A stretch of 64,000 nucleotides of DNA from Escherichia coli (GTDB lineage: Bacteria > Pseudomonadota > Gammaproteobacteria > Enterobacterales > Enterobacteriaceae), in assembly GCF_013315695.1 (NCBI RefSeq), contig NZ_CP054353.1. One strand, written 5' to 3'. How positions within the stretch are numbered: the first letter of the stretch is position 1; each line of letters starts with the position of its first letter. Shown one piece after another: positions 8,601 through 37,168 of this stretch. A program made the position numbers and the translations under genes. The notes beneath the pieces are model-generated. The model searched no databases and was not told the DNA's origin. It worked only from the letters and a program-made list of their open reading frames with translations.

Positions 8601-9431
8601 TTGAAATCATTATTCAATCGGTTAACGGGAAAAGCGGTTAGCCGGACAGCTTTCGTCGAACATCTTGGTCATGAAGTTGTACAACATCATCCAAACTGGA
8701 AAGTCATGATTTCGACTGACCATAAATTGATGCGCATTGATACGGGTCACCAAACGGTGGAAATCACTCTTGATGATGCCTACAAACGTTATCAAGCCGC
8801 ACCAGACCCGCTGGAAGAAGTGGCTGCAGATATGCTGAAACAGCTTGCAGAAATGCTGCCGACCGGGCGCTGTATTGTTCCGGTGATTAAAGAAAAAGCC
8901 TGGCTGGATACCGTTCGCCAACAGCTTAGCCAGTATGAATCTGATCCAGAGATCCTCAACGCCTCGCTGGATTTTGCCTGGGAAGACTTTAACGATGAGT
9001 TAATTATCTTGTTTGCTGAAGATGGTAGCGAAACCATGCGCTATCTGATGCGCTACGAAGTGACCATTGACCGCGAACAAGCCATCAATAATTTGAAGCA
9101 AATATTGCCGGAAGTTTCGGCTGAAATCGTTGATACAGGCGCAAACGCTGGAAAAGTTGCCGTTATCTCCGCAGGGGGTACTTATGAGCCCAGTCTGATG
9201 CTCATTGACGATCTTTGGGTGCAATCACCCGATCCTGAATGCGGCGACCTGTTAGTGACTGTTCCCTCCAGAGGAAAACTGTTTTTCACCTACAATGATC
9301 AGCCAGCAAATCTCAGCGCATTACGACAGTTAACAGAACAATGCTTCCGTGAGGATGACCATCCTCTGACAACACAGATATTCATCCGCCGTAACGGTCA
9401 CTTTTATCCCTGGGTAGAAACCTTGCATTAA
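8601..9431 (+). CDS. Hypothetical protein, 276 codons, function unknown
   Basis: Long uninterrupted ORF 36 bp downstream of acuI, TTG start preceded by a purine-rich stretch (agagaggg); first in-frame ATG is at 8706. Composition is protein-like, with some rare codons (AGA, ATA, CGA). A hairpin plus T-tract lies about 65 bp downstream. I do not recognise the product. Confidence 0.45.
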   Translation: MKSLFNRLTGKAVSRTAFVEHLGHEVVQHHPNWKVMISTDHKLMRIDTGHQTVEITLDDAYKRYQAAPDPLEEVAADMLKQLAEMLPTGRCIVPVIKEKAWLDTVRQQLSQYESDPEILNASLDFAWEDFNDELIILFAEDGSETMRYLMRYEVTIDREQAINNLKQILPEVSAEIVDTGANAGKVAVISAGGTYEPSLMLIDDLWVQSPDPECGDLLVTVPSRGKLFFTYNDQPANLSALRQLTEQCFREDDHPLTTQIFIRRNGHFYPWVETLH

Positions 9432-9494
9432 CGCAACCTCCGTCATGCTTGAAAAAGCTTGTCGGAGTATGTGATGAATGCTGCAAACTCACCG

Positions 9495-9527
9495 AAGCCG
9501 ATTTTGCCACCAAATCGGCTTTTTTAT
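9495..9527 (+). terminator. Candidate intrinsic terminator downstream of the 276-codon ORF
   Basis: Inverted repeat gccgattt / aaatcggc around a short loop, followed by ttttttatt. Confidence 0.5.
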
Positions 9528-9989
9528 TGTCACGCGGCAAATTCTGAATGCATCACATAGCCGCACTGCCGCCTGACAAAACAGTTTACCTTCTGCAAAA
9601 TGGGGGGAATAATCTGATTTTATTTGATTACAAATTAACCACTTAAACCTATTTAATGCTGAGCATTGTCAGTCGGTTGATTTTGCGTGCTTTAGCATTC
9701 ACATCTATCCAGACGATGCAGTGAAAATTGGGTAATCCCCAGCAACCGCTGCGTAATGTCGTCTATCTTGTCGCGATCCTGGCATCCCTACATTATTTGT
9801 GGTCTGTGAAGATTATCTCATTGCAGCCCCTCATCTTCGCAGGGCTGGCTTTACAGCTTTTCACCTTACGTTATAAGAAGTTCCGTCGATGATGGCGCTA
9901 ATTTCGTGAATTGTGCGGCTTGTTGCAAATTACACGGTGTTGAAGGTTATTTACATGTTAGCTGTTGATTATCTTCCCTGATAAGACCA

Positions 9990-10296: not shown

Positions 10297-10767
10297 ATGG
10301 ATATTCGTAAGATTAAAAAACTGATCGAGCTGGTTGAAGAATCAGGCATCTCCGAACTGGAAATTTCTGAAGGCGAAGAGTCAGTACGCATTAGCCGTGC
10401 AGCTCCTGCCGCAAGTTTCCCTGTGATGCAACAAGCTTACGCTGCACCAATGATGCAGCAGCCAGCTCAATCTAACGCAGCCGCTCCGGCGACCGTTCCT
10501 TCCATGGAAGCGCCAGCAGCAGCGGAAATCAGTGGTCACATCGTACGTTCCCCGATGGTTGGTACTTTCTACCGCACCCCAAGCCCGGACGCAAAAGCGT
10601 TCATCGAAGTGGGTCAGAAAGTCAACGTGGGCGATACCCTGTGCATCGTTGAAGCCATGAAAATGATGAACCAGATCGAAGCGGACAAATCCGGTACCGT
10701 GAAAGCAATTCTGGTCGAAAGTGGACAACCGGTAGAATTTGACGAGCCGCTGGTCGTCATCGAGTAA
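10297..10767 (+). CDS. accB: Biotin carboxyl carrier protein of acetyl-CoA carboxylase
   Basis: 156-aa translation [28 protein letters not shown]... with Ala/Pro-rich linker and the biotinylation motif [10 protein letters not shown]. Confidence 0.97.
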
Positions 10768-10777
10768 CGAGGCGAAC

Positions 10778-12127
10778 ATGCTGGATAAAATTGTTATTGC
10801 CAACCGCGGCGAGATTGCATTGCGTATTCTTCGTGCCTGTAAAGAACTGGGCATCAAGACTGTCGCTGTGCACTCCAGCGCGGATCGCGATCTAAAACAC
10901 GTATTACTGGCAGATGAAACGGTCTGTATCGGCCCTGCTCCGTCAGTAAAAAGTTATCTGAACATCCCGGCAATCATCAGCGCCGCTGAAATCACCGGCG
11001 CAGTAGCAATCCATCCGGGCTACGGCTTCCTCTCCGAGAACGCCAACTTTGCCGAGCAGGTTGAACGCTCCGGCTTTATCTTCATCGGCCCGAAAGCAGA
11101 AACCATTCGCCTGATGGGCGACAAAGTATCCGCAATCGCGGCGATGAAAAAAGCGGGCGTTCCTTGCGTACCGGGTTCTGACGGCCCGCTGGGCGACGAT
11201 ATGGATAAAAACCGCGCCATTGCTAAACGCATTGGTTATCCGGTAATTATCAAAGCCTCCGGCGGCGGCGGCGGTCGCGGTATGCGCGTAGTGCGCGGCG
11301 ACGCTGAACTGGCACAATCCATCTCCATGACCCGTGCGGAAGCGAAAGCTGCTTTCAGCAACGATATGGTTTACATGGAGAAATACCTGGAAAATCCTCG
11401 CCACGTCGAGATTCAGGTACTGGCTGACGGTCAGGGCAACGCTATCTATCTGGCGGAACGTGACTGCTCCATGCAGCGCCGCCACCAGAAAGTGGTCGAA
11501 GAAGCACCAGCACCGGGCATTACCCCGGAACTGCGTCGCTACATCGGCGAACGTTGCGCTAAAGCATGTGTTGATATCGGCTATCGCGGTGCAGGTACTT
11601 TCGAGTTCCTGTTCGAAAATGGCGAGTTCTATTTCATCGAAATGAACACCCGTATTCAGGTAGAACACCCGGTTACTGAAATGATCACCGGCGTTGACCT
11701 GATCAAAGAACAGCTGCGTATCGCTGCCGGTCAACCGCTGTCGATCAAGCAAGAAGAAGTTCACGTTCGCGGCCATGCGGTAGAGTGCCGTATCAACGCC
11801 GAAGATCCGAACACCTTCCTGCCAAGCCCGGGCAAAATCACCCGTTTCCATGCACCTGGCGGTTTTGGCGTGCGTTGGGAGTCTCATATCTACGCGGGCT
11901 ACACTGTGCCGCCGTACTATGACTCAATGATCGGCAAACTGATTTGCTACGGTGAAAACCGTGACGTGGCGATTGCCCGCATGAAGAATGCGCTGCAGGA
12001 GCTGATCATCGACGGTATCAAAACCAACGTTGATCTGCAGATCCGCATCATGAATGACGAGAACTTCCAGCATGGTGGCACTAACATCCACTATCTGGAG
12101 AAAAAACTCGGTCTTCAGGAAAAATAA
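10778..12127 (+). CDS. accC: Biotin carboxylase subunit of acetyl-CoA carboxylase
   Basis: Translation from [33 protein letters not shown]... (449 aa), ATP-grasp fold; the ORF-track start at 10739 is an upstream extension overlapping accB. Confidence 0.97.
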
Positions 12128-12172
12128 TTTGTGATGCGCGGTGTTTTCATCGCGCTTAGCAAAGAACGTAAT

Positions 12173-12206
12173 CAACGCCGGGCCTGTTAACGCTGCCCGG
12201 CGTTTT
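12173..12206. terminator. Bidirectional intrinsic terminator shared by accC (+) and the convergent island gene (-)
   Basis: GC-rich inverted repeat cgccgggc ... gcccggcg followed by ttttta on the plus strand; sits between two convergent stop codons (12127 and 12219). Confidence 0.6.
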
Positions 12207-12218
12207 TATTGCCGTTAG

Positions 12219-13265
12219 CTAACGGTAGCTTGCAATTTCCGCTTTCAACGCGCTAATTTCAGCATCGCCATCAACAATTCCCAGCTCAAAGCAGTATGTC
12301 TTTGTTTCCCCTGGCTCTATAAAGGGCAGACGCCCCTGCGCTCGTTCTTTATCACGACCGTCAGGAAAACTATTGCTGACCTCCAGCCCCATAACATATT
12401 CACCCGCGCCTAAATTTTTCCAGTGGATAAAGTTGGGTAGCTGCATGGTGTCGAATTTCTCGTAAATTCCCCACCCCAGTTCGGCGTTCACCAGCGCAAC
12501 TTTACTCATCCCCTGACTGTCGCTATTCAACGTGAGATAGTAAACCTGCTCGTCAAAACCGGGCTGTGGGGTACAAATCTCCAGATGACTGGTTAACCCT
12601 TCCGCCGCATGCGGGGTTCGTGGCGTTACGCTTTTAGCCGACAGCAAGATTTCTGCCTGTGGCGATAATAAAGGCCAGCCGTAATTAAAGTGATAAAGAA
12701 TTTGCAGCGGCTGGCGGGTGAAACCATGATTAGTCACCTTGTCTTCAATGCGCAGCACATTTTCGCCATAACGGCAGCGAATGGTCCTTTCCAGCGTCAG
12801 ATTTTCACCGAACAATCGTGTTTCCCGTACTTTGCCATTGATGACAAATTCAATGCCGTCGTCGGTCCGTTCTGTGCGATACCCCACCTCTTCTGCTGGA
12901 GTCGCAGCCAAACGCCCGTGTAACCCCAGCGTTTCTCCGTTATCCTCACAGGGCGTGCCAATGTAGCTAAGTCCGCAGGTAGTCAGTAACCCCGCGTAGA
13001 AGCTACGTAAAAACCCGTTGCCCTGAGACTCAAAAAAAGCGGGGGCGACAATGCCGTTGGGGGTGATAAAAGAGAGCGCAGTATCCTTGTAGCTGGCCCA
13101 TGCAATATCCAGCGCGCGATCTTTTACCACCGTAAATGCCAGTCCCGCACCAGTACGGACATCAAACGCTTCTGTCCCCTTTGCTCTGCCACTACGTAAC
13201 TCATAGTGTTTAATTCCGGCAACCTGCGAGAGATCGCCAATCCACGACCAAATTTCGTTTTTCAT
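12219..13265 (-). CDS. Island protein, 348 aa; possibly aldose-1-epimerase (mutarotase)-like, assignment tentative
   Basis: Complete ORF whose stop/start overlaps the start of the downstream kinase gene (13262..13265), i.e. operon-coupled. No signal peptide or transmembrane segment seen. Family call is impression only. Confidence 0.65.
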   Translation of the reverse strand: MKNEIWSWIGDLSQVAGIKHYELRSGRAKGTEAFDVRTGAGLAFTVVKDRALDIAWASYKDTALSFITPNGIVAPAFFESQGNGFLRSFYAGLLTTCGLSYIGTPCEDNGETLGLHGRLAATPAEEVGYRTERTDDGIEFVINGKVRETRLFGENLTLERTIRCRYGENVLRIEDKVTNHGFTRQPLQILYHFNYGWPLLSPQAEILLSAKSVTPRTPHAAEGLTSHLEICTPQPGFDEQVYYLTLNSDSQGMSKVALVNAELGWGIYEKFDTMQLPNFIHWKNLGAGEYVMGLEVSNSFPDGRDKERAQGRLPFIEPGETKTYCFELGIVDGDAEISALKAEIASYR

Positions 13266-14224
13266 TGTGCTGCTTCCCGAATGGACATGTCATGGCGCTG
13301 GATGAACGCTTCGATTTCCGCAAGGCGAGACGTTCCCTCCATTGGGCCACGTCGGGTTACCGCCAGTGCACCGCAGGCGTTGGCATATTGTAATGCCCGA
13401 TGGGCGTCAAACCCTAGCTGGCGGCAGGCAATCCACGCGCCACCAAAACAGTCTCCCGCACCGGTCGGGTCAACTTCTTCCACCGGATAGCTCTCAACAT
13501 GAAACTGCTCATTCGCGGAGTAGTAACTGGCACCTTGATTGCCGCGCTTCACAATCACCTCTTTAACACCTTCTTCAAGAAAACCAGCGATTGCACGCTC
13601 CGGTGTCGAGTGTGGCGACAAGAGCAACACTTCTCCCTCGCTGGGCATATAGATATCTGTTAACTCAAGAACAAAGTGGAGGGCGTCACGCATTTCTGGA
13701 ATATCGAGCATCTCTTTCCGAATATTAGGGTCAAAAGAAATAACGCCACCATTCTCTTTTACAATGGTTACCGCTTTCTTTACTGCGTCTACCATATGGA
13801 ATGAAAACAGGGATGAACCCATAATATGAAAATGGGTACAGTCCTTCAGAATATTTTCATCAACATGCTGCGCCGATAATTTACCGCAAGCGGCATTCTT
13901 GATATTAAAAATAAAATCGCGATCGCCAGAGTTATGATAAGTAACAAAGGCACTCCCGGTAGCTTCCAGAGGTAAGACTGAAATCCCCCTGATATCCACA
14001 CCGTCAGCAGCCAGACGATGTATATTAATATCACCAAAGCCATCATTCCCCACACAGCTAATGATGCCGCACGGAACGCCAAGACGTGTCACCTGGTCGA
14101 TAAAAATAGCGGGTGCGCCACTGGGATAAGGGCCGTTCCAGATACCTGGTTGATCAAATGGCTGGCCGATTTTACTCGCCATAATTTCAACCAGAATTTC
14201 TCCAATTGTGAAGACCTTACTCAT
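13262..14224 (-). CDS. pfkB/ribokinase-family sugar (phosphate) kinase, copy 1
   Basis: 320-aa translation with the family's C-terminal signature DPTGAGDCFGGA and an N-terminal Gly-rich substrate region. Confidence 0.85.
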   Translation of the reverse strand: MSKVFTIGEILVEIMASKIGQPFDQPGIWNGPYPSGAPAIFIDQVTRLGVPCGIISCVGNDGFGDINIHRLAADGVDIRGISVLPLEATGSAFVTYHNSGDRDFIFNIKNAACGKLSAQHVDENILKDCTHFHIMGSSLFSFHMVDAVKKAVTIVKENGGVISFDPNIRKEMLDIPEMRDALHFVLELTDIYMPSEGEVLLLSPHSTPERAIAGFLEEGVKEVIVKRGNQGASYYSANEQFHVESYPVEEVDPTGAGDCFGGAWIACRQLGFDAHRALQYANACGALAVTRRGPMEGTSRLAEIEAFIQRHDMSIREAAQ

Positions 14225-14245
14225 ATGATTAATTCCTTGAAATGA

Positions 14246-15235
14246 TTAGCTGCGTTTTCTTTTATTTCTTACGTCAAAATAAACGGCTACAAGAATGACT
14301 AATCCTTTAACCACCATCTGATAGAAATAGGGAACGTTCATTAAGTTCATGCCATTATTAATAACGCCGATGGTTAATGCCCCGATTACCGTCCCCACCA
14401 CGGTTCCATAGCCGCCGTTCAGGCTGGTGCCTCCCAGTACAGCCGCAGCAATAGCATCCAGTTCGTAGCTCAACGCGGAATTCGGTTGCCCGGAATAGAG
14501 GCGTGAGGCGAGGATCATCCCGCTGATACCTGCCAGCACAGCTGTAATCATAAAGACTTTTATTTTCAAGCGGGTGACATTTATCCCTGAATAAACTGCC
14601 GCTTCTTTATTACCACCAGTGATATAAATCTTTCGTCCAAAGGTTGTTTTAGTAAGAATGAAATGGTTAATCAGCAATAAGATAATTAATATCCAGATTG
14701 GAATAGGTATATAGAGAAATTCTCCATTCCCCAGCGCCAGAAAGGCATCATCTTTAATCATGATGGGCATACCATCGGTCACTATATAAGCGATACCACG
14801 GAAGATCCCCATAGTAGCAACGGTGACAATAAACGACGGGATCCCCGCTATAGCCGTCAAGCCACCATTTATCATCCCCAGAGCCAGGGCTGCAATAATG
14901 GATAATGGGACCAATAAAATAAATGGAATTCCCCATGAAGCCCCAAGCGCAGCAAATGTGCCAATCAATGCAATGGTTGAACCAACCGATAAATCAATAT
15001 CGCCAAGCAAAAGTACGTAAGTCATTCCATAGGCGGTAATTGCAATTATCGAAACCTGAAGAATAATATTAGTAATGTTATTGGCGGTAAAAAAACTGTC
15101 ATTAATAAAACTGAACAGAATGATTAACACCACCATTCCACTGAGGATACCGCCATATTGCCTGAAGACTTTTTTAAAATTATTTGCAATGGGAATTTCC
15201 GAAGGTTTCGGACTGGCAAGAGTTTTCTCTGTCAT
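14246..15235 (-). CDS. ABC sugar transporter permease (RbsC-like)
   Basis: 329-aa highly hydrophobic protein with multiple predicted membrane spans; immediately downstream of, and contiguous with, the ATPase gene. Confidence 0.85.
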   Translation of the reverse strand: MTEKTLASPKPSEIPIANNFKKVFRQYGGILSGMVVLIILFSFINDSFFTANNITNIILQVSIIAITAYGMTYVLLLGDIDLSVGSTIALIGTFAALGASWGIPFILLVPLSIIAALALGMINGGLTAIAGIPSFIVTVATMGIFRGIAYIVTDGMPIMIKDDAFLALGNGEFLYIPIPIWILIILLLINHFILTKTTFGRKIYITGGNKEAAVYSGINVTRLKIKVFMITAVLAGISGMILASRLYSGQPNSALSYELDAIAAAVLGGTSLNGGYGTVVGTVIGALTIGVINNGMNLMNVPYFYQMVVKGLVILVAVYFDVRNKRKRS

Positions 15236-16735
15236 TTAACGTACTCCTGTTGCAGCGGTCATTACCTGTGTCTGCGTTAAATTTTCACATGAATAAATAT
15301 CGGCAATCGTTTTATTACGCATTACCACCAGACGATCGCTAAGTGCCATGACTTCTGGCAGTTCAGAGGACACCAGAATAATTGCTGTCCCTGCCGCAGC
15401 CAGTTGACGTATCACGTTATAGATTTCAAATTTTGCGCCGACATCCACTCCGCGCGTTGGCTCATCGAGCAATAAAATACGCGGAGTTTTCTCCAGCCAC
15501 TTCGATAACACGATTTTCTGTTGATTACCGCCGCTCAGTGCTCCCACTGCCTGATGTACAGAACTCACTTTAGTGTTCATTCTGGCAATTGATTGCAGCG
15601 TCTTCGCCTCTTCTTGTCGGTGATTGATAAGTCCTATCCGCGAAGCGTTATATTGAAACGCCACATGGTGCGTGTTCATATTGACGTCGTGCATCAGCAC
15701 TAACCCTTCTTCCTTGCGGTTTTCGGTCACAAAAGCAATGCCATGATCAATAGCCTGTTTGGGATTAGCGATCCTGACTTCCTTACCATCAATCAACACA
15801 GTCCCGTGATACGAAACGAGGCCAAATAGCGCCTTCATCACATCGGAACGCCCGGCCCCCACCAGGCCAAAAAATCCGAGGACTTCCCCCGGACGCACAG
15901 CGAAACTGACCTCTTTAAAAAGCGAAGGATGGGAAAGGTTTTTTACTTCCAGTTTTGCAGGAACATTTTCATCCGGCTTTTCCCCAAGACGTGCTGGCCA
16001 AATATTTTTCATTTCCCGACCAACCATTTGGGCAATCAAATGCTGGATATCACTGTTTTTCTTTTCATGCGTAGCGATATACTCACCGTCGCGGATCACC
16101 GAAATATCATCTGAAATCCGCATAATTTCATCCATGCGATGAGAGATATAAATAACCGCACAACCTCGCTGCTTTAATTTCTCAATAATGTTAAACAGAA
16201 TCTCTGCTTCATTATCACTTAGCGAAGATGTCGGTTCATCCATAATCACGACATCTGCTGCATAGCTTAAGGCTTTGGCAATTTCTACCAGTTGCCTATG
16301 TGCCATCGACATATTGCCGACCATTTCCAGCGGATCCAGTGGGATGCCCAGTTCCGCGAGGAGATTCTGGCAATCTGCGAGCATTTTTTTATCGTTAATA
16401 ATGCCAAAACGTCGCGGTTCATTATTGGCATAAATATTTTCCGCCACGGTCATATTATTACTCAGGCTCAGTTCCTGAAAAATAATCGCAATCCCTAACT
16501 GGCGAGAATGCTGCGGATTATTAATGGTGATGGTTTCACCACGTAGTGTTATCGTTCCCTGGGTTGGCGGATAAACACCGGCGAGTATTTTCATTAATGT
16601 CGATTTACCGGCACCATTCTCGCCTAATAAAGTATGCACCCGCCCTTTACGTAAAGAGAGGGTAATATCTTTTAATGCCTGAACATGACCAAATGTCTTC
16701 GCAATATGCGAAACATCAAGAATAACATCCGTCAT
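15236..16735 (-). CDS. ABC sugar transporter ATP-binding protein with duplicated nucleotide-binding domains (RbsA-like)
   Basis: 499-aa translation with two Walker A motifs (GENGAGKST; GLVGAGRS) and two ABC signature motifs (LSGGNQQK-type), typical of monosaccharide importer ATPases. Confidence 0.9.
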   Translation of the reverse strand: MTDVILDVSHIAKTFGHVQALKDITLSLRKGRVHTLLGENGAGKSTLMKILAGVYPPTQGTITLRGETITINNPQHSRQLGIAIIFQELSLSNNMTVAENIYANNEPRRFGIINDKKMLADCQNLLAELGIPLDPLEMVGNMSMAHRQLVEIAKALSYAADVVIMDEPTSSLSDNEAEILFNIIEKLKQRGCAVIYISHRMDEIMRISDDISVIRDGEYIATHEKKNSDIQHLIAQMVGREMKNIWPARLGEKPDENVPAKLEVKNLSHPSLFKEVSFAVRPGEVLGFFGLVGAGRSDVMKALFGLVSYHGTVLIDGKEVRIANPKQAIDHGIAFVTENRKEEGLVLMHDVNMNTHHVAFQYNASRIGLINHRQEEAKTLQSIARMNTKVSSVHQAVGALSGGNQQKIVLSKWLEKTPRILLLDEPTRGVDVGAKFEIYNVIRQLAAAGTAIILVSSELPEVMALSDRLVVMRNKTIADIYSCENLTQTQVMTAATGVR

Positions 16736-16795
16736 AATGACCTCGGTGTCACAACAAAACGTCGATAACGTTTTGTTGTGAAATGAAGATGTTTA

Positions 16796-17686
16796 TCATT
16801 TACCTGTATAAACGCCGGGTTGTACCGGGATCATTTTTTCTACCGGTTTACCATTGAGGTGATCAACAGCGGCATCAATGGCTTTAGCACCCATTTGATC
16901 GGGATATTGCCGAATCACGGCCGCAAACGTTTTTTCACTGTCAACGGCATCACGCGCTTCTTTCATGCCGTCAAAACCAATGATTTTGATGTTGTCGTTA
17001 TGCGCAGATTTCGCTGCGATAACCGCTGCCAGCGCCGCATCATCACCAAAGCCAAACAGACCATTCAGGTTGGCATTTGCCTGCATAATGTTTTGCGCAG
17101 TCGTTAACGCTTCAGCCCGCGTAATACCAGGCTGTTCAGCAACAATTTTAATATCCGGTGTATCGCTTAACCCTTTCTTAAAACCATCAACGCGCGCAAC
17201 CACCGATTGTAATGCCGGATAAGAAATAATGGCTACAGTACCTTTACCATTCAAAAGTTTGCCCATTAACTTGCCTGCTTCAACGCCTCCCGCGTAGTTA
17301 TCGGTCGCAACATGCGATACGACCGGAACGCCTTCCGCAGCGACGTCGACGGTGATAACGGGAATACCGGCCTTATCGGCTTTAATTATCGCCGCCTGGA
17401 CGCCTTTCGAATCGACCGGAGAGATAATAATGGCATCCACTTTTTTAGTAATAAAATCCTCAACATCAGAAAGTTGTTTGTTTAAATCCTGATTGGCAAT
17501 AGAGACACTTAAATTGACATTGTCTTTTTTTGCCTCTTCTTTCATGGCATTCGCAAGATCAATATAGAAAGGATGTTGCTGTGTTAATAATGACGCACCA
17601 ATTTTATACTCTTTTGCCAACGAGCTTTGCGAGAACAATGCCAGGCTCACCAACATAGCTGAACCAAGTAATTTAATATTTTTCAT
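16796..17686 (-). CDS. Periplasmic sugar-binding protein (RbsB-like)
   Basis: 296 aa with N-terminal signal peptide (MKNIKLLGSAMLVSLALFSQSSLA) and periplasmic-binding-protein-like sequence. Confidence 0.85.
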   Translation of the reverse strand: MKNIKLLGSAMLVSLALFSQSSLAKEYKIGASLLTQQHPFYIDLANAMKEEAKKDNVNLSVSIANQDLNKQLSDVEDFITKKVDAIIISPVDSKGVQAAIIKADKAGIPVITVDVAAEGVPVVSHVATDNYAGGVEAGKLMGKLLNGKGTVAIISYPALQSVVARVDGFKKGLSDTPDIKIVAEQPGITRAEALTTAQNIMQANANLNGLFGFGDDAALAAVIAAKSAHNDNIKIIGFDGMKEARDAVDSEKTFAAVIRQYPDQMGAKAIDAAVDHLNGKPVEKMIPVQPGVYTGK

Positions 17687-17721
17687 AAATAATCCTCATT
17701 GTTTTTGTAGGGTACAACATC

Positions 17722-18603
<882 letters not shown>

Positions 18604-18697
18604 TTACAAAATGAAGAAAGAGAATCTTCACTTTCATTTTGAAAGCAAACTAGCACAGCAAAAGCGGCAAAAAGCGTGATGCATGTCGAATATCATC

Positions 18698-18722
18698 AAA
18701 ATAACTTACAAAAAATAACTTA
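18698..18722. repeat. Tandem direct repeat aaaataactta (two copies, 14-bp register) in the divergent island control region
   Basis: Exact 11-bp repeat at 18698..18708 and 18712..18722, between the divergent aldolase operon and the DeoR-family regulator gene. Confidence 0.35.
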
Positions 18723-18917
18723 ATTTGTTTTTTACTTTGTAAGTGAAACCAATGACACCTCTGCATAAATATGAATATATTCATTTATTTTTCAATGTAT
18801 TAAGCTATTTTCGTTGCGATTTTTGACCCATGATTTTCTTTTCGAATTGTCGATATTATTGAAGGGTAACTTTCAAAGAAAAATACAAGGGGCTATAGTG
18901 TTACGCATTAAAGGCCA

Positions 18918-19748
18918 ATGAAGAGTGTTAACGTGCCGAGAAAATCGTCTAACCTACTGAAACGCAGATTAAAAATTGCAGAAATTGTTGCCGCCCAGGG
19001 TGAAATCAAAGTTGATGACTTATCTGCGCAACTTGGTGTCTCTAGCGTGACGATCCGCGGCGATCTCAGTTATCTGGAGCAACAGGGATATTTAAAGCGA
19101 TCATTTGGCGGTGCTATTGCGACACCACTCTCCTCTGAACCAGAAGCGATACAACCGATCGCGCCGTTGTCTCTGGCACAACAAATGGAAATAGCACGAC
19201 ATTGCGCACGGTTAATTCGGGATCGTGACACGCTATTTCTTGGACATGGGACAATCTGCCGTAAGATCATTCCCTTGCTCAGCGAAGTGAAAAAACTGCG
19301 TCTGATCACCAACGATCCCGAACATGCGCTGCTGGCAAATCAGTTTATTGATGGCGAAATAATACTGGCTGGCAGTGAAATGCTGCGCCCCGATACCGCA
19401 CTGGCCGGAAAACCTCTCGAACAGGCACTTCAGCATTTCACCATTACACATAGCATTCTGGAAATCAGCCATCTGGATGCTGATGGTACTTTAAATATCA
19501 ACGTTCCCAGACTTGCCGCTGCCTGGCAGCTCTGTTTCGATAATGCCCAGAATAAGACGGTTATCGTTGCCGCCGATCCTGCGCCATCAACGGCTGCTAT
19601 CGGGCATTTGCATCAAGCAGAAAATGTGATCGTCAGCCGCAGCATTAACGAACAATATCAGCAACAATTGCAGTCGGCTGATTTCGTTATCCTTTATACC
19701 AGTAATGAGTGCTTTACCTGGTCCAATCGCGAAAGGCTTCAGGAATGA
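18918..19748 (+). CDS. DeoR-family transcriptional regulator
   Basis: N-terminal helix-turn-helix pattern ...IAEIVAAQGEIKVDDLSAQLGVSSVTIRGDLSYLEQQGYLKRSFGGA..., as in GlpR/DeoR proteins; transcribed divergently from the transporter/aldolase operon. Confidence 0.8.
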   Translation: MKSVNVPRKSSNLLKRRLKIAEIVAAQGEIKVDDLSAQLGVSSVTIRGDLSYLEQQGYLKRSFGGAIATPLSSEPEAIQPIAPLSLAQQMEIARHCARLIRDRDTLFLGHGTICRKIIPLLSEVKKLRLITNDPEHALLANQFIDGEIILAGSEMLRPDTALAGKPLEQALQHFTITHSILEISHLDADGTLNINVPRLAAAWQLCFDNAQNKTVIVAADPAPSTAAIGHLHQAENVIVSRSINEQYQQQLQSADFVILYTSNECFTWSNRERLQE

Positions 19749-19758
19749 GAGGGGTTTT

Positions 19759-20715
19759 GTGACAATAACTATCTGCGCTATGGGCGAATTGCTGGCCGAG
19801 TTTTTGTCCCGCAACCCACATCAAAAATTCACTCAGCCTGGGGAGTTTATCGGGCCATTTCCCAGCGGTGCACCAGCAATTTTTGCTGCTCAGGTGGCAA
19901 AACTGTCCCATCGGGCCATCTTCTTCGGATGTGTTGGTAATGATGATTTTGGCCGACTCATTATAGAGCGTCTCCGTCATGAAGGTGTCATTACCGATGG
20001 GATTCACGTTATGAACAATGCCGTCACAGGTACGGCGTTCGTGAGTTATCAAAATCCCCAGCAGCGGGATTTCGTCTTTAATATCCCTAACAGCGCCTGC
20101 GGTTTGTTTACTGCCGAGCACATTGATAAGGATCTGCTTAAACAGTGTAACCATCTGCATATTGTGGGCTCATCGTTGTTCTCATTTCGCATGATCGATG
20201 TCATGCGTAAAGCAATAACGACGATCAAATCGGCTGGCGGAACCGTTTCTTTCGATCCCAATATTCGCAAAGAGATGCTGAGCATTCCTGAAATGGCGCA
20301 GGCCCTCGATTATTTGATTGAATATACGGATATTTTTATCCCCAGCGAAAGCGAACTCCCTTTCTTCGCGCGTCACAAAAATCTGTCAGAAGAACAGATT
20401 GTTAGCGATCTTCTCCACGGCGGCGTAAAACATGTGGCGATAAAACGCGCCCAGCGTGGGGCCAGCTATTACAAGCTTAAAAACGGTACATTACACGCCC
20501 AGCATGTTACAGGCCACGATATCGAAATTATCGATCCAACGGGTGCAGGCGACTGCTTTGGCGCAACGTTTATCACTCTTTTCTTATCCGGTTTCCCGGC
20601 ACACAAGGCGCTGCAATATGCAAATGCCAGCGGCGCGCTCGCCGTAATGCAGCAAGGTCCGATGGAAGGGATATCCTCACTGACTGACATTGAAGACTTT
20701 TTGCAGCAGCACTGA
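19759..20715 (+). CDS. pfkB/ribokinase-family sugar (phosphate) kinase, copy 2
   Basis: Paralogue of the 13262..14224 kinase (shared blocks PSGAPAIF, GSSLFSF, SFDPNIRKEML, DPTGAGDCFG, LQYANA.GALAV). Start set at GTG 19759, just after the regulator stop and a gagagggg stretch; the ORF-track start at 19705 overlaps the regulator. Confidence 0.85.
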   Translation: MTITICAMGELLAEFLSRNPHQKFTQPGEFIGPFPSGAPAIFAAQVAKLSHRAIFFGCVGNDDFGRLIIERLRHEGVITDGIHVMNNAVTGTAFVSYQNPQQRDFVFNIPNSACGLFTAEHIDKDLLKQCNHLHIVGSSLFSFRMIDVMRKAITTIKSAGGTVSFDPNIRKEMLSIPEMAQALDYLIEYTDIFIPSESELPFFARHKNLSEEQIVSDLLHGGVKHVAIKRAQRGASYYKLKNGTLHAQHVTGHDIEIIDPTGAGDCFGATFITLFLSGFPAHKALQYANASGALAVMQQGPMEGISSLTDIEDFLQQH

Positions 20716-20807
20716 ACGGCAATTTTCTGTCAGATTATTTTCCCTGCCTGAAGAGTTGCCGTAGAATTGCCCGTTTCTCGTATCCCCCCATGAGGAGGAC
20801 CCCTTCC

Positions 20808-21050
20808 GTGGACACTCGTTTTGTTCAGGCCCATAAAGAGGCGCGCTGGGCGCTGGGGCTGACCCTTTTGTATCTGGCGGTATGGTTAGTAGCCGCTTAC
20901 TTACCTGGCGTTACCCCCGGTTTTACCGGCTTTCCACGCTGGTTTGAGATGGCTTGCATCCTGACGCCGCTGCTGTTTATTGGACTGTGCTGGGCGATGG
21001 TGAAATTTATCTATCGCGATATCCCACTGGAGGATGACGATGCAGCTTGA
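20808..21050 (+). CDS. yhdT: Small membrane protein YhdT
   Basis: Translation (V/M)DTRFVQAHKEARWALGLTLLYLAVWLVAAYL... (80 aa) from a GTG; overlaps the panF start. Confidence 0.85.
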   Translation: MDTRFVQAHKEARWALGLTLLYLAVWLVAAYLPGVTPGFTGFPRWFEMACILTPLLFIGLCWAMVKFIYRDIPLEDDDAA

Positions 21051-22491
21051 AGTAATTCTACCGCTGGTCGCCTATCTGGTGGTGGTGTTCGGTATCTCTG
21101 TTTATGCGATGCGTAAACGAAGCACTGGCACCTTCCTTAATGAGTATTTCCTCGGCAGCCGCTCTATGGGCGGTATTGTGCTGGCGATGACACTCACCGC
21201 GACCTATATCAGTGCCAGTTCGTTTATCGGCGGGCCTGGAGCTGCTTATAAATACGGCCTGGGCTGGGTATTGCTGGCGATGATTCAGCTTCCTGCAGTC
21301 TGGCTTTCGCTCGGTATTCTCGGCAAGAAGTTCGCAATTCTTGCGCGCCGCTACAATGCGGTGACGCTGAACGATATGCTGTTTGCCCGCTACCAGAGTC
21401 GTCTGCTGGTGTGGCTGGCGAGTTTAAGTTTGCTGGTTGCGTTCGTTGGTGCGATGACCGTGCAGTTTATCGGCGGTGCGCGCCTGCTGGAAACCGCGGC
21501 GGGTATCCCTTATGAAACAGGTTTGCTGATTTTTGGCATCAGCATTGCGCTCTACACCGCCTTTGGCGGCTTTCGCGCCAGCGTGCTGAACGACACCATG
21601 CAAGGGCTGGTGATGCTGATTGGCACCATTGTGCTGCTTATTGGCGTGGTCCATGCTGCTGGCGGCTTAAGCAATGCAGTAGAGACGCTGCAAACCATCG
21701 ATCCGCAACTGGTTACGCCACAAGGCGCTGACGATATTCTGTCACCTGCGTTTATGACGTCGTTCTGGGTGCTGGTGTGCTTTGGCGTTATAGGCCTGCC
21801 GCATACTGCGGTGCGCTGTATCTCTTATAAAGACAGCAAAGCAGTACATCGGGGGATCATCATCGGTACGATTGTAGTCGCAATCCTGATGTTCGGTATG
21901 CATCTGGCCGGAGCGTTAGGTCGGGCGGTGATCCCCGATCTCACCGTACCGGACCTGGTGATCCCGACGTTGATGGTAAAAGTACTGCCACCGTTTGCTG
22001 CCGGGATCTTCCTTGCAGCTCCTATGGCTGCGATCATGTCGACGATCAACGCCCAATTGCTGCAAAGTTCCGCTACGATCATTAAAGATCTCTATCTGAA
22101 TATCCGTCCGGATCAAATGCAAAACGAGACGCGCCTGAAGCGGATGTCGGCGGTGATTACGTTGATTCTCGGCGCGTTGCTGCTGCTTGCTGCATGGAAG
22201 CCGCCTGAAATGATCATCTGGCTGAATTTGCTGGCCTTCGGCGGGCTGGAAGCTGTCTTCCTGTGGCCGCTGGTACTGGGTCTTTACTGGGAACGCGCTA
22301 ACGCCAAAGGCGCGCTAAGTGCGATGATCGTTGGCGGCGTGCTGTATGCCGTACTTGCGACACTGAATATTCAGTACCTGGGCTTCCACCCTATCGTGCC
22401 CTCGTTGCTGCTAAGTTTGCTGGCTTTCCTGGTCGGAAACCGTTTCGGTACGTCCGTCCCGCAAGCTACCGTTTTGACTACTGATAAATAA
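21040..22491 (+). CDS. panF: Sodium/pantothenate symporter
   Basis: Translation [30 protein letters not shown]..., multi-span SSS-family transporter; start at second Met of the ORF-track protein. Confidence 0.95.
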
Positions 22492-22502
22492 AGAGTTTTG
22501 CC

Positions 22503-23384
22503 ATGCCTTGGATCCAACTGAAACTGAACACTACCGGCGCGAACGCGGAAGATCTTAGCGATGCGCTGATGGAAGCGGGTGCCGTTTCTATCACTTTTCA
22601 GGATACCCACGATACGCCAGTATTTGAGCCGCTGCCGGGCGAAACGCGCCTGTGGGGCGACACCGATGTGATTGGTCTGTTCGACGCTGAAACCGATATG
22701 AACGACGTGGTGGCGATTCTGGAAAACCATCCGCTGCTCGGCGCGGGCTTCGCGCATAAAATCGAACAACTGGAAGATAAAGACTGGGAGCGCGAATGGA
22801 TGGATAATTTCCACCCGATGCGCTTTGGTGAACGACTGTGGATCTGCCCAAGCTGGCGTGATGTGCCGGACGAAAACGCCGTCAACGTGATGTTAGACCC
22901 AGGGCTGGCGTTTGGTACGGGTACCCATCCAACTACCTCTCTGTGCCTGCAATGGCTCGACAGCCTCGATTTAACCGGTAAAACGGTCATCGACTTTGGC
23001 TGTGGTTCCGGCATTCTGGCTATCGCGGCGCTGAAGCTGGGTGCAGCAAAAGCCATTGGTATTGATATAGACCCGCAGGCGATTCAGGCCAGCCGCGACA
23101 ACGCCGAACGTAATGGCGTTTCTGACCGTCTGGAACTCTACCTACCTAAAGATCAGCCAGAAGAAATGAAAGCCGACGTGGTGGTCGCTAACATCCTTGC
23201 AGGCCCATTACGTGAACTGGCACCGTTAATCAGCGTCCTGCCGGTTTCAGGTGGCTTGCTGGGCCTTTCCGGTATTCTGGCAAGCCAGGCAGAGAGCGTT
23301 TGTGAAGCTTATGCCGACAGCTTCGCTCTGGACCCGGTCGTGGAAAAAGAAGAGTGGTGCCGCATTACCGGTCGTAAGAATTAA
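22503..23384 (+). CDS. prmA: Ribosomal protein L11 methyltransferase
   Basis: 293-aa translation [26 protein letters not shown]... with SAM-binding motif ([15 protein letters not shown]). Confidence 0.95.
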
Positions 23385-31246: not shown

Positions 31247-31301
31247 GGTGATGCTGCCAACTTACTGATTTAGTGTATGATGGTGTTTTTGAGGTGCTCC
31301 A

Positions 31302-31577
31302 GTGGCTTCTGTTTCTATCAGCTGTCCCTCCTGTTCAGCTACTGACGGGGTGGTGCGTAACGGCAAAAGCACCGCCGGACATCAGCGCTATCTCTGCTCT
31401 CACTGCCGTAAAACATGGCAACTGCAGTTCACTTACACCGCTTCTCAACCCGGTACGCACCAGAAAATCATTGATATGGCCATGAATGGCGTTGGATGCC
31501 GGGCAACAGCCCGCATTATGGGCGTTGGCCTCAACACGATTTTACGTCACTTAAAAAACTCAGGCCGCAGTCGGTAA
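31302..31577 (+). CDS. insA: IS1 InsA (transposition inhibitor / N-terminal part of the transposase)
   Basis: 91-aa translation [43 protein letters not shown]...; an A6C slippery run (aaaaaac, 31553..31559) lies near its 3' end. Confidence 0.9.
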
Positions 31578-31999
31578 CCTCGCGCATACAGCCGGGCAGT
31601 GACGTCATCGTCTGCGCGGAAATGGACGAACAGTGGGGCTATGTCGGGGCTAAATCGCGCCAGCGCTGGCTGTTTTACGCGTATGACAGGCTCCGGAAGA
31701 CGGTTGTTGCGCACGTATTCGGTGAACGCACTATGGCGACGCTGGGGCGTCTTATGAGCCTGCTGTCACCCTTTGACGTGGTGATATGGATGACGGATGG
31801 CTGGCCGCTGTATGAATCCCGCCTGAAGGGAAAGCTGCACGTAATCAGCAAGCGATATACGCAGCGAATTGAGCGGCATAACCTGAATCTGAGGCAGCAC
31901 CTGGCACGGCTGGGACGGAAGTCGCTGTCGTTCTCAAAATCGGTGGAGCTGCATGACAAAGTCATCGGGCATTATCTGAACATAAAACACTATCAATAA
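31496..31999 (+). CDS. insB: IS1 InsB frame (transposase InsAB' is made by -1 frameshifting from insA)
   Basis: 167-aa translation [64 protein letters not shown]..., matching remembered InsB. Confidence 0.88.
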
Positions 32000-32069
32000 G
32001 TTGGAGTCATTACCCGTTAATAAGAGAGTTAACTTATTAAGCGTTAGCGTTTATTACTGAGGTAACACC

Positions 32070-37092: not shown

Positions 37093-37168
37093 TGGTGCTG
37101 ATACCCAGAGTCGAACTGGGGACCTCACCCTTACCAAGGGTGCGCTCTACCAACTGAGCCATATCAGC
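37093..37168 (-). tRNA. thrV: tRNA-Thr
   Basis: Reverse complement reads gctgatatggctcagttggtagagcgcacccttggtaagggtgaggtccccagttcgactctgggtatcagcacca (anticodon GGT, CCA end encoded). Confidence 0.9.

What the first reader, a model, noticed from the sequence alone, without database searches (positions are those of the whole stretch)
12128..12218. Island junctions show no mobility signatures; accC and the island share one hairpin
There is no integrase, transposase, tRNA or flanking direct repeat at either border (12128..12218 and 20716..20807). The left junction places the stop codon of the distal island gene 13 bp from the accC terminator hairpin, which then serves both convergent transcription units. 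This tidy arrangement suggests either an old acquisition now fixed in this lineage or an ancestral locus deleted in strains that have accC directly next to yhdT.
Basis: partly seen in the sequence, partly recalled or inferred. Interest (0 to 1): 0.3.

Follow-up and report, generated by a model that had tools for sequence, protein, structure and literature searches.

The report
Non-mobile borders of tagatose island
The two borders belong to the already published D-tagatose utilisation island of E. coli. They carry no mobile-element traces because the island is an old alternative version of the accC–yhdT spacer that strains swap by ordinary homologous recombination, so the finding is largely ordinary.

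Summary
Window 12128-20807 is an 8.68-kb, eight-gene block between accC and yhdT. It has no integrase, transposase, tRNA or flanking repeat. A strong hairpin (12174-12204, then U5) lies 14 nt from the stop codon of the last island gene.

The block is the published E. coli Nissle "tag cluster" for D-tagatose use (Ha et al. 2022).

New here:
- Similarity to island-free E. coli stops exactly at the accC stop codon and resumes at the yhdT start codon. The island replaces the 108-bp spacer rather than splitting it.
- The hairpin is therefore not the K-12 accC terminator. It is an island-specific terminator, conserved in other genera with two compensatory changes.
- It has a U-tract only in the accC direction, so shared two-way use is unproven.
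- The locus is strictly two-state in 5,425 complete E. coli genomes (1,421 island, 4,004 empty).
- The same island sits at the same site in at least six other genera and in a divergent Escherichia lineage. Its divergence and GC3 track the flanks.
- The empty spacer is likewise conserved in Salmonella, Klebsiella and Enterobacter.

Both versions therefore predate E. coli, and no flank SNP is linked to either state. The direction of the original event is unresolved.

The parts
10778..12127 (+). accC (biotin carboxylase). Its stop codon TAA 12125-12127 is the left limit of similarity with island-free E. coli.
   Evidence: in island genomes the match to the K-12-type query ends at query position 129, the accC stop
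12128..12218 (.). Left junction (91 nt). Island-specific spacer, single-copy, present only in the 1,421 island genomes.
12136..12155 (.). Hairpin 1 (8-bp stem GCGCGGUG/CAUCGCGC, UUUU loop). No adjacent U-tract on either strand. A hairpin with a different sequence occupies the same position in Superficieibacter, Enterobacter and K. spallanzanii.
12174..12207 (+). Hairpin 2 with a U5 tail. This is the intrinsic terminator of accBC in the island version. The 10-bp GC-rich stem is conserved in E. coli, Escherichia E69, Superficieibacter and two Enterobacter species, with two compensatory G-C to A-U changes. The minus strand has no U-tract.
12219..13265 (-). Last gene of the six-gene tag operon: DUF4432 / aldose-1-epimerase-family protein.
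   Evidence: PMC9720028
13262..14224 (-). PfkB sugar kinase of the tag operon.
14246..16735 (-). ABC transporter permease (14246-15235) and ATPase (15236-16735).
16796..17686 (-). Periplasmic sugar-binding protein.
17722..18576 (-). Class II tagatose-bisphosphate-family aldolase, first gene of the operon.
18577..18917 (.). 341-bp divergent control region between the two island units. The length matches the published description of the tag cluster.
18918..20715 (+). DeoR/GlpR regulator (18918-19748) and second PfkB kinase (19780-20715).
20716..20807 (.). Right junction (92 nt). Island-specific yhdT upstream region, single-copy. No terminator-like site lies between the kinase gene and yhdT. The core GTTGCCGTAGAATTGCCCGTTTCT...CCATGArGAGGA...CTTCC(G/A)TGG is conserved in Trabulsiella, K. 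spallanzanii and Enterobacter BIGb0383.
20762..20767 (+). TAGAAT, a -10-like box. It is the positional counterpart of TACAAT in the empty spacer. Promoter function is inferred only.
20788..20811 (+). Predicted leader hairpin that pairs the Shine-Dalgarno GGAGG (20794-20798) and the GTG start codon of yhdT.
20808..21050 (+). yhdT. The start codon is GTG here and ATG in the empty version. Similarity with island-free E. coli resumes at the second base of the start codon.
21040..23384 (+). panF and prmA, the conserved right flank available for homologous recombination.

Best explanation
The interval 12128-20807 is the D-tagatose utilisation island (the E. coli Nissle 'tag cluster'). It is not a self-mobile element. 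It is one of at least two old, mutually unalignable versions of the accC-yhdT spacer: the 8.68-kb island version and a 108-bp empty version.

Both versions are older than E. coli. Strains gain or lose the island when homologous recombination in the conserved flanking genes (accBC on the left, yhdT-panF-prmA on the right) swaps one version for the other. That is why neither border shows an integrase, tRNA, repeat or target duplication, and why the limits of difference fall exactly on the accC stop codon and the yhdT start codon.

The island version brings its own accBC terminator (hairpin 12174-12204 plus U5) and its own yhdT leader. The terminator is clearly built for accC. Whether it also ends tag-operon transcripts is plausible but only inferred. 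A hairpin without a U-tract might work this way, possibly helped by head-on polymerase collisions.

Shown: the anatomy, the two-state population structure, the same-site conservation across genera, the conservation of each version's non-coding borders, and the lack of linkage to flank SNPs.
Inferred: recombination as the transfer route, presence of the island in the ancestor of E. coli, and terminator function in either direction.
For: 1. Identity with the published cluster. Gene content, order and the 341-bp divergent spacer all match, as does the accC/yhdT position. The 13.1-kb accB-prmA stretch containing the island is 97.7% identical to ST131.
2. Replacement, not insertion. The alignment with an island-free strain breaks right after the accC TAA and resumes at the yhdT start codon. 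The island borders show no secure similarity to the 108-bp spacer (p = 0.04-0.12).
3. Strictly two states. 4,004 genomes are empty and 1,421 have the island, which accounts for all 5,425 genomes with the locus. Left and right island borders always occur together.
4. Age of the island version. The order accC-island-yhdT-panF-prmA is the same in Superficieibacter, Trabulsiella (3 genomes), K. spallanzanii, Enterobacter BIGb0383 and Serratia H1w (the Serratia contig shows only about 61% of accC); the Enterobacter ENT03 contig ends inside the island, so only accB-accC and the island could be checked there. Protein and nucleotide divergence ranks the same way as in the flanks. Island GC3 tracks flank GC3 from 46/60 in E. 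coli to 67/73 in Serratia.
5. A divergent Escherichia lineage (E69, plus a second genome, L093) carries the island at 86-94% identity. Its less-constrained flanks (acuI, acrS, panF) are also 89-94%.
6. Age within E. coli. The window, ST131/SC455 and 2013C-3250 islands differ by about 2-3%, as much as or more than their flanks.
7. Age of the empty version. The spacer is conserved in E. coli, Salmonella, K. variicola, E. asburiae and L098.
8. Recombination has uncoupled the island from its flanks. No SNP in the last 700 nt of accC or the first 800 nt of yhdT-panF is fixed between the two states. The island-bearing strain 2013C-3250 has flanks almost identical to island-free C600 up to both borders. 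Identical AccC, YhdT and PanF protein accessions occur in both states.
9. The hairpin is under selection. 95% of cells pair, and there are two independent compensatory G-C to A-U changes, in E69 and in Superficieibacter.
Against: - No recombination event was observed directly. No donor-type flank tract was found in any of the four island-bearing E. coli genomes examined (window, ST131, SC455, 2013C-3250), so recombination is inferred from the loss of linkage.
- The direction of the original event (insertion into an empty spacer, or deletion) is unresolved.
- E. albertii and E. fergusonii sequences could not be retrieved. The species-representative scan found no island in any other Escherichia representative, which weakens the idea that the island is ancestral to the genus.
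- Keeping two versions across genera requires inter-species recombination of at least one of them, which is unproven.
- The yhdT leader types are not strictly tied to island state. Island-bearing Superficieibacter and Serratia have longer right spacers with a more empty-like GTAcAATC box.
- The island's GC content is 47% against 54% in the flanks. The published paper reads this as evidence of horizontal transfer.
- The covariation support is modest (17 of 500 shuffles reach it, 6 sequences).
Confidence: 0.7

Rival explanations
1. Recent horizontal acquisition by a mobile element or phage into the B2/F ancestor, with the mobility genes and attachment repeats since lost. This is the reading suggested by the published GC-content argument.
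For: - Island GC is 47% against 54% in the flanks.
- The distribution is patchy and rich in phylogroup B2 (PMC9720028).
- The cluster lies outside the accC/yhdT site in Budvicia. Only the ABC transporter and kinase core is found in Rhizobium and Agrobacterium.
Against: - No mobility gene, tRNA, repeat or repeated border sequence is present.
- The site and orientation are the same in at least six other genera, with homologous non-coding borders.
- Island divergence and GC3 track the host flanks.
- There is about 10% divergence from the E69 lineage and 2-3% among E. coli island lineages.
- The 7-point GC offset also reflects comparison with highly expressed, GC3-rich housekeeping flanks.
Confidence: 0.1
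2. The island is ancestral, and island-free strains arose by a simple internal deletion between accC and yhdT.
For: - The island is present in the divergent E69 lineage.
- It is in clade I (2/2), B2 (93%) and F (73%) according to PMC9720028.
- The E. coli island lineages are deeply diverged.
Against: - The empty spacer is not a subset of the island borders.
- It is orthologous to the empty spacer of Salmonella, Klebsiella and Enterobacter, including a different terminator, -10 box, Shine-Dalgarno sequence and start codon.
- A deletion cannot generate that sequence. All 4,004 empty E. coli genomes carry that same spacer version (>=80% coverage).
Confidence: 0.1
3. A single old import of the island version into an Escherichia ancestor from another enterobacterial genus, by recombination through the conserved flanks. 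The empty version would then be the native Escherichia state.
For: - The empty version is the majority state across Enterobacteriaceae. No island was found in other Escherichia species representatives.
- Island-type border sequences are shared with other genera.
Against: - No close donor exists. The nearest non-Escherichia islands are only 75-82% identical, which is ordinary inter-genus distance.
- The flanks of island-bearing E. coli are fully E. coli-like up to the borders.
- This rival is compatible with the best explanation and differs from it only in direction.
Confidence: 0.3
4. The hairpin at 12174-12204 is a true bidirectional terminator shared by accBC and the tag operon.
For: - It is the only strong hairpin facing the tag-operon stop codon, 14 nt away.
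- The stem is equally stable on the minus strand, at -20 kcal/mol.
- Trabulsiella has a perfectly symmetric A5-stem-T7 terminator in a 45-nt accC-kinase spacer.
- Published single-molecule work reports that a stem-loop plus head-on polymerase collisions can end convergent transcription (bioRxiv 10.1101/2022.10.23.513370).
Against: - The minus-strand tail is GAUUACGUU, with no U-tract. The consensus scan calls no minus-strand terminator there.
- The same asymmetry is seen in Superficieibacter and both Enterobacter species.
- A second hairpin lies further downstream for minus-strand transcripts.
- No 3'-end data exist.
Confidence: 0.35

Closest known systems
EcN tag cluster for D-tagatose utilisation (Ha et al., iScience 2022, PMC9720028); listed as genomic region GR23 accC..yhdT in the BEN2908 comparison (PMC12928451)
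   Same: - Same position between accC and yhdT.
- Same eight genes in two divergent units separated by 341 bp.
- The 13.1-kb accB-prmA stretch containing the island is 97.7% identical to the B2 (ST131) copy.
- Same phylogroup-biased presence/absence.
   Different: Nothing differs structurally. The window copy is a rare sequence lineage: only 5 of 5,426 genomes are >=99% identical to it. The published paper infers horizontal transfer from GC content. The border and cross-genus comparison here points to an old resident version instead.
Core-flanked, non-mobile genomic islets of E. coli that are exchanged by homologous recombination of conserved flanks (established knowledge from comparative E. 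coli genomics)
   Same: - No integrase, tRNA or repeats.
- Sharp borders at core-gene ends.
- Presence/absence is uncoupled from flank SNPs.
- Another cargo (DoxX + KdgM) occupies the same slot in another enterobacterium.
   Different: Both versions here have recognisable orthologues in several genera. That depth is greater than is usually documented for such islets.
Integrase-type genomic or pathogenicity islands (tRNA-associated, flanked by direct repeats)
   Same: Patchy distribution and below-average GC content.
   Different: No integrase, no tRNA, no direct repeats and no repeated border sequence.
Bidirectional intrinsic terminators between convergent genes in E. coli (described from full-length RNA profiling; mechanism in bioRxiv 10.1101/2022.10.23.513370)
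   Same: A single GC-rich stem-loop lies between two convergent stop codons.
   Different: The canonical form has an A-tract and a U-tract flanking the stem. Here only the accC side has the U-tract.

Membership tests
EcN tag cluster (D-tagatose utilisation island) | Located between accC and yhdT | tested here: met
EcN tag cluster (D-tagatose utilisation island) | Six-gene minus-strand unit (class II aldolase, binding protein, ATPase, permease, PfkB kinase, epimerase-family) and a two-gene plus-strand unit (DeoR regulator, PfkB kinase), separated by 341 bp | tested here: met
   The spacer 18577-18917 is 341 bp.
EcN tag cluster (D-tagatose utilisation island) | High sequence identity to the copy in B2 strains | tested here: met
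   97.7% over the 13.1-kb accB-prmA stretch to ST131; 96-99% per kb within the island
EcN tag cluster (D-tagatose utilisation island) | Confers growth on D-tagatose | not testable with these tools
   Shown experimentally for E. coli Nissle in PMC9720028. Not tested for this strain.
Integrase-type mobile genomic island | Integrase, recombinase or transposase gene | tested here: not met
   Pfam on all eight proteins gives only metabolic, transport and regulator domains. The spacers are too short to hold remnants.
Integrase-type mobile genomic island | tRNA or tmRNA gene, or an attachment site, at a border | tested here: not met
   nearest tRNA at 37093; no Rfam match
Integrase-type mobile genomic island | Flanking direct repeats | tested here: not met
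   The longest shared direct word is 7 nt, against a shuffle mean of 7.6. Nothing was reported.
Integrase-type mobile genomic island | Atypical base composition | tested here: inconclusive
   47% GC against 54% in the flanks. However, island GC3 tracks host GC3 across genera.
REP / MITE / IS remnant at the borders | Border sequence repeated elsewhere in the genome | tested here: not met
   One place per genome for the right border. For the left border the median is 1 and the maximum 2; the one such genome inspected (N64) has the border split by a secondary IS200C insertion.
Intrinsic (Rho-independent) terminator, + strand (accBC) | GC-rich stem-loop followed directly by a U-tract | tested here: met
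   10-bp stem, -22 kcal/mol, U5 tail. Compensatory changes are seen across genera. Function was not measured.
Bidirectional intrinsic terminator | U-tract after the stem on both strands (A-tract and U-tract flanking the stem) | tested here: not met
   The minus-strand tail is GAUUACGUU, and no minus-strand call was made.

The most novel reading that the evidence does not exclude
The accC-yhdT spacer may be a long-lived cargo slot in Enterobacterales. It would hold several ancient, unalignable versions (empty, tag island, DoxX-KdgM) that cross species boundaries by recombination through the flanks.

On this reading the tag version predates E. coli, contrary to the published 'recent horizontal transfer' reading. 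It also rewires the yhdT-panF-prmA leader. That leader has a different -10 box, a GTG start codon, and a hairpin that sequesters the Shine-Dalgarno sequence and start codon. No terminator follows the island kinase gene. Pantothenate-transporter expression could therefore differ between island-bearing and island-free strains.
Probability: 0.35. Interest if true: 0.4.

Novelty: already known. Interest (0 to 1): 0.22.

Why it matters
The island itself matters. It lets B2-type, often pathogenic, E. coli grow on the sweetener D-tagatose. That is already published.

The border analysis adds a modest correction. The island looks like an old, recombination-exchanged version of a core spacer, not a recent mobile acquisition. 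Two practical consequences follow:
- It can move into any E. coli through flank homology alone, for example by transduction.
- Island-bearing strains carry a different accBC terminator and a different yhdT-panF leader from K-12.

This is useful for annotation and for anyone engineering or tracking the cluster. It does not open a new question.

Tried and rejected
1. Terminal inverted repeat. ATTGCCGTT (12208-12216) and AACGGCAAT (20715-20723) abut the two terminal stop codons. I rejected this as a repeat signature.

2. Cryptic similarity between the island borders and the empty spacer. Candidates were CCGGCsTTTTTATT at the terminator and GTAsAATTsCCCGyTTTCT at the -10 box and leader. Local-alignment shuffle tests give only p = 0.04-0.12. 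I keep this as a hint, not a result.

3. Mosaic flanks as direct evidence of an imported island. In 2013C-3250 the flanks are K-12-like right up to both borders, with no donor-type tract.

4. Closest Escherichia outgroups. I tried to retrieve E. albertii and E. fergusonii through YhdT homologues. The look-ups returned only other genera, E. coli variants, a second E69-type genome and a DoxX/KdgM-bearing locus.

5. Synonymous divergence between genera. It is saturated for island genes (pS about 0.7), so it cannot separate vertical descent from old transfer.

6. Rfam scan of 11500-21500. No match.

Full report
**What is there.**
The window is E. coli and is 100% identical to strain MSB1_4I. accB-accC (10297-12127, + strand) is followed by eight genes:
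- a six-gene minus-strand unit: class II tagatose-bisphosphate-family aldolase, periplasmic binding protein, ABC ATPase, permease, PfkB kinase and a DUF4432/aldose-epimerase-family protein (12219-18576);
- a plus-strand DeoR regulator and a second PfkB kinase (18918-20715).

After these come yhdT (GTG at 20808), panF and prmA.

**Checking the observation.**
- No tRNA lies closer than 37093.
- All eight proteins carry only metabolic, transport or regulator domains.
- The longest direct word shared by the borders is 7 nt, below the shuffle mean of 7.6.
- A general repeat search finds nothing that flanks the block.
- Rfam finds nothing.
- Each border sequence is single-copy and occurs only in island-bearing genomes, so neither is a REP, MITE or IS end.

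The hairpin is real. The stem is 12174-12183 paired with 12195-12204, 10 bp and GC-rich, at about -20 to -22 kcal/mol with z = -3.8. A T run follows to 12207. The stop codon of the last island gene (12219-12221) is 14 nt from the stem. A second, smaller hairpin lies at 12136-12155.

**Identity of the island.**
This is the published E. coli Nissle "tag cluster" for D-tagatose utilisation. It lies between accC and yhdT and has eight genes in two units separated by 341 bp. It is present in 93% of B2, 73% of F and 2/2 clade I genomes, and is rare in A, B1, D and E (PMC9720028). It is also listed as GR23 accC..yhdT in PMC12928451. The window spacer 18577-18917 is 341 bp.

**Breakpoints.**
I aligned an island-free strain (2FA, K-12-like) with both borders. 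Similarity ends immediately after the accC TAA and resumes at the second base of the yhdT start codon, which is ATG in the empty state and GTG in the island state. The 108-bp empty spacer is therefore replaced, not split.

The K-12 accC terminator (AAAAGGCCGGattttCCGGCCTTTTTT) is absent from the window, and the window hairpin is a different sequence. Shuffle tests give no secure similarity between the empty spacer and either island border (p = 0.04-0.12). K-12 against Salmonella empty spacers scores z = 50.

**Population structure.**
| State | Complete E. coli genomes |
|---|---|
| K-12-type empty spacer | 4,004 |
| Both island borders | 1,421 |
| Island essentially full length | 1,419 |
| Total with the locus | 5,425 |

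There are no hybrids. A few genomes have a disrupted left border; in the one inspected (N64) an IS200C lies between the two hairpins.

**Other taxa.**
A scan of one genome per species with the binding protein found the order accB-accC-island-yhdT-panF-prmA, in the same orientation, in:
- Superficieibacter electus
- Trabulsiella odontotermitis (2 genomes) and T. guamensis
- Klebsiella spallanzanii
- Enterobacter sp. BIGb0383
- Serratia sp. H1w (the contig shows only about 61% of accC)

In Enterobacter sp. ENT03 the contig ends inside the island, so only the accB-accC side could be checked.

Budvicia has the cluster elsewhere, and rhizobia have only the transporter and kinase core.

Island protein and nucleotide divergence from E. 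coli ranks the same way as flank divergence. Island GC3 tracks flank GC3 from host to host, from 46/60 in E. coli to 67/73 in Serratia.

The non-coding borders are themselves conserved:
- The hairpin-2 stem is shared by E. coli, E69, Superficieibacter and both Enterobacter species. It shows two independent compensatory G-C to A-U changes, and 95% of cells pair.
- The yhdT-proximal sequence GTTGCCGTAGAATTGCCCGTTTCT...CCATGArGAGGA...CTTCC(G/A)TGG is shared with Trabulsiella, K. spallanzanii and BIGb0383.

The empty spacer is equally conserved in Salmonella, K. variicola, E. asburiae and another genus. An unidentified enterobacterium carries DoxX + KdgM genes in the same slot with an empty-type leader.

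**Age within Escherichia.**
"E. coli E69" is equally distant from all four E. coli backgrounds tested: 89-94% in acuI, acrS and panF, and 95-98% in accBC and prmA. By inference it is a separate species-level lineage. Its island is 86-94% identical to the window island, in line with its less-constrained flanks. A second genome of this type also carries the island.

Inside E. coli, the window, ST131/SC455 and 2013C-3250 islands differ by about 2-3%. That is as much as or more than their flanks. The non-B2 carrier therefore did not recently receive a B2 copy.

**Uncoupling from the flanks.**
No SNP in the last 700 nt of accC or the first 800 nt of yhdT-panF is fixed between island-bearing and island-free genomes. 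The flanks of 2013C-3250 (island-bearing) are almost identical to those of C600 (island-free) up to both borders. Identical AccC, YhdT and PanF proteins occur in both states.

**Interpretation.**
Both spacer versions predate E. coli. They behave as alternative versions of one locus, swapped by homologous recombination in the conserved flanks. This explains the clean borders without invoking a mobile element.

A simple deletion cannot produce the Salmonella-like empty spacer. A recent insertion into the K-12 spacer would have left the K-12 terminator and leader in place. Within Escherichia, presence in E69, clade I, B2 and F favours an island-bearing E. coli ancestor. Without E. albertii and E. 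fergusonii the direction remains open.

The hairpin is the island version's accBC terminator. On the minus strand it lacks a U-tract: the tail is GAUUACGUU and the scan makes no call. The same asymmetry is seen in other genera that carry the epimerase-family gene. Only Trabulsiella, which lacks that gene, has a symmetric terminator. Shared use is therefore possible, for example through collision-assisted termination, but it is unproven.

No terminator-like site separates the island kinase gene from yhdT. The island-type leader is predicted to pair its Shine-Dalgarno sequence and GTG start codon. Any regulatory consequence of this is speculative.

**Verdict.**
The object is already known and its behaviour is ordinary for a core-flanked islet. 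Interest is low.

Noticed in passing
window 8744-9599 (ORF 8601-9431): An 856-bp segment holds most of a 276-aa ORF (8601-9431) and replaces 101 bp of K-12/ST131 sequence between acuI and accB. The ORF has no Pfam hit; RefSeq calls it hypothetical or DUF1444. Strain 2013C-3250 also has it (about 97% identical). This is a second clean presence/absence difference without mobility genes, 3 kb left of the island.
   Followed up: partly
window 31248-32014: 767 bp unrelated to the 520 bp found in C600 and ST131 replace the 3' end of acrF and the sequence downstream of it. The acrF reading frame in the window ends at 31273 (935 aa, against 1,034 aa implied by the acrF coordinates annotated in C600 and ST131).
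   Followed up: partly
L097 (E. coli N64), about 2399-2857: An IS200C transposase gene sits inside the left junction, between hairpin 1 and hairpin 2. About 7 of the 1,421 island genomes have a disrupted left junction.
   Followed up: partly
L095 1182-3000; L096: An unidentified enterobacterium (accC 89% and panF 82% identical to E. coli) carries DoxX and KdgM-family porin genes between accC and yhdT. It has two terminators after accC and an empty-type yhdT leader. The spacer is therefore a recurrent cargo site.
   Followed up: partly
window 20788-20811: The island-type yhdT leader is predicted to fold so that the Shine-Dalgarno GGAGG and the GTG start codon are both base-paired. An in-frame ATG at 20790 lies six codons upstream. 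Similar sequences occur in Trabulsiella and Enterobacter BIGb0383.
   Followed up: no
L009 (Serratia sp. H1w), both island borders: Copies of a CCCTCACCC...CCCTCTCCC palindromic repeat lie at both borders of the Serratia island. A stretch of about 1.5 kb, not examined further, lies between accC and the kinase where the epimerase-family gene would be.
   Followed up: no
L003 (CP089930.1, 'E. coli E69') and L093: This genome is deposited as E. coli but is 89-94% identical to all E. coli backgrounds in less-constrained genes. It is probably a separate Escherichia species-level lineage, and it carries an island version about 10% diverged from the window's.
   Followed up: partly
window 20738-22738 (panF): panF is unusually polymorphic among E. 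coli (93-98% between strains). The neighbouring accB, prmA and dusB-fis are near-identical between strains.
   Followed up: no
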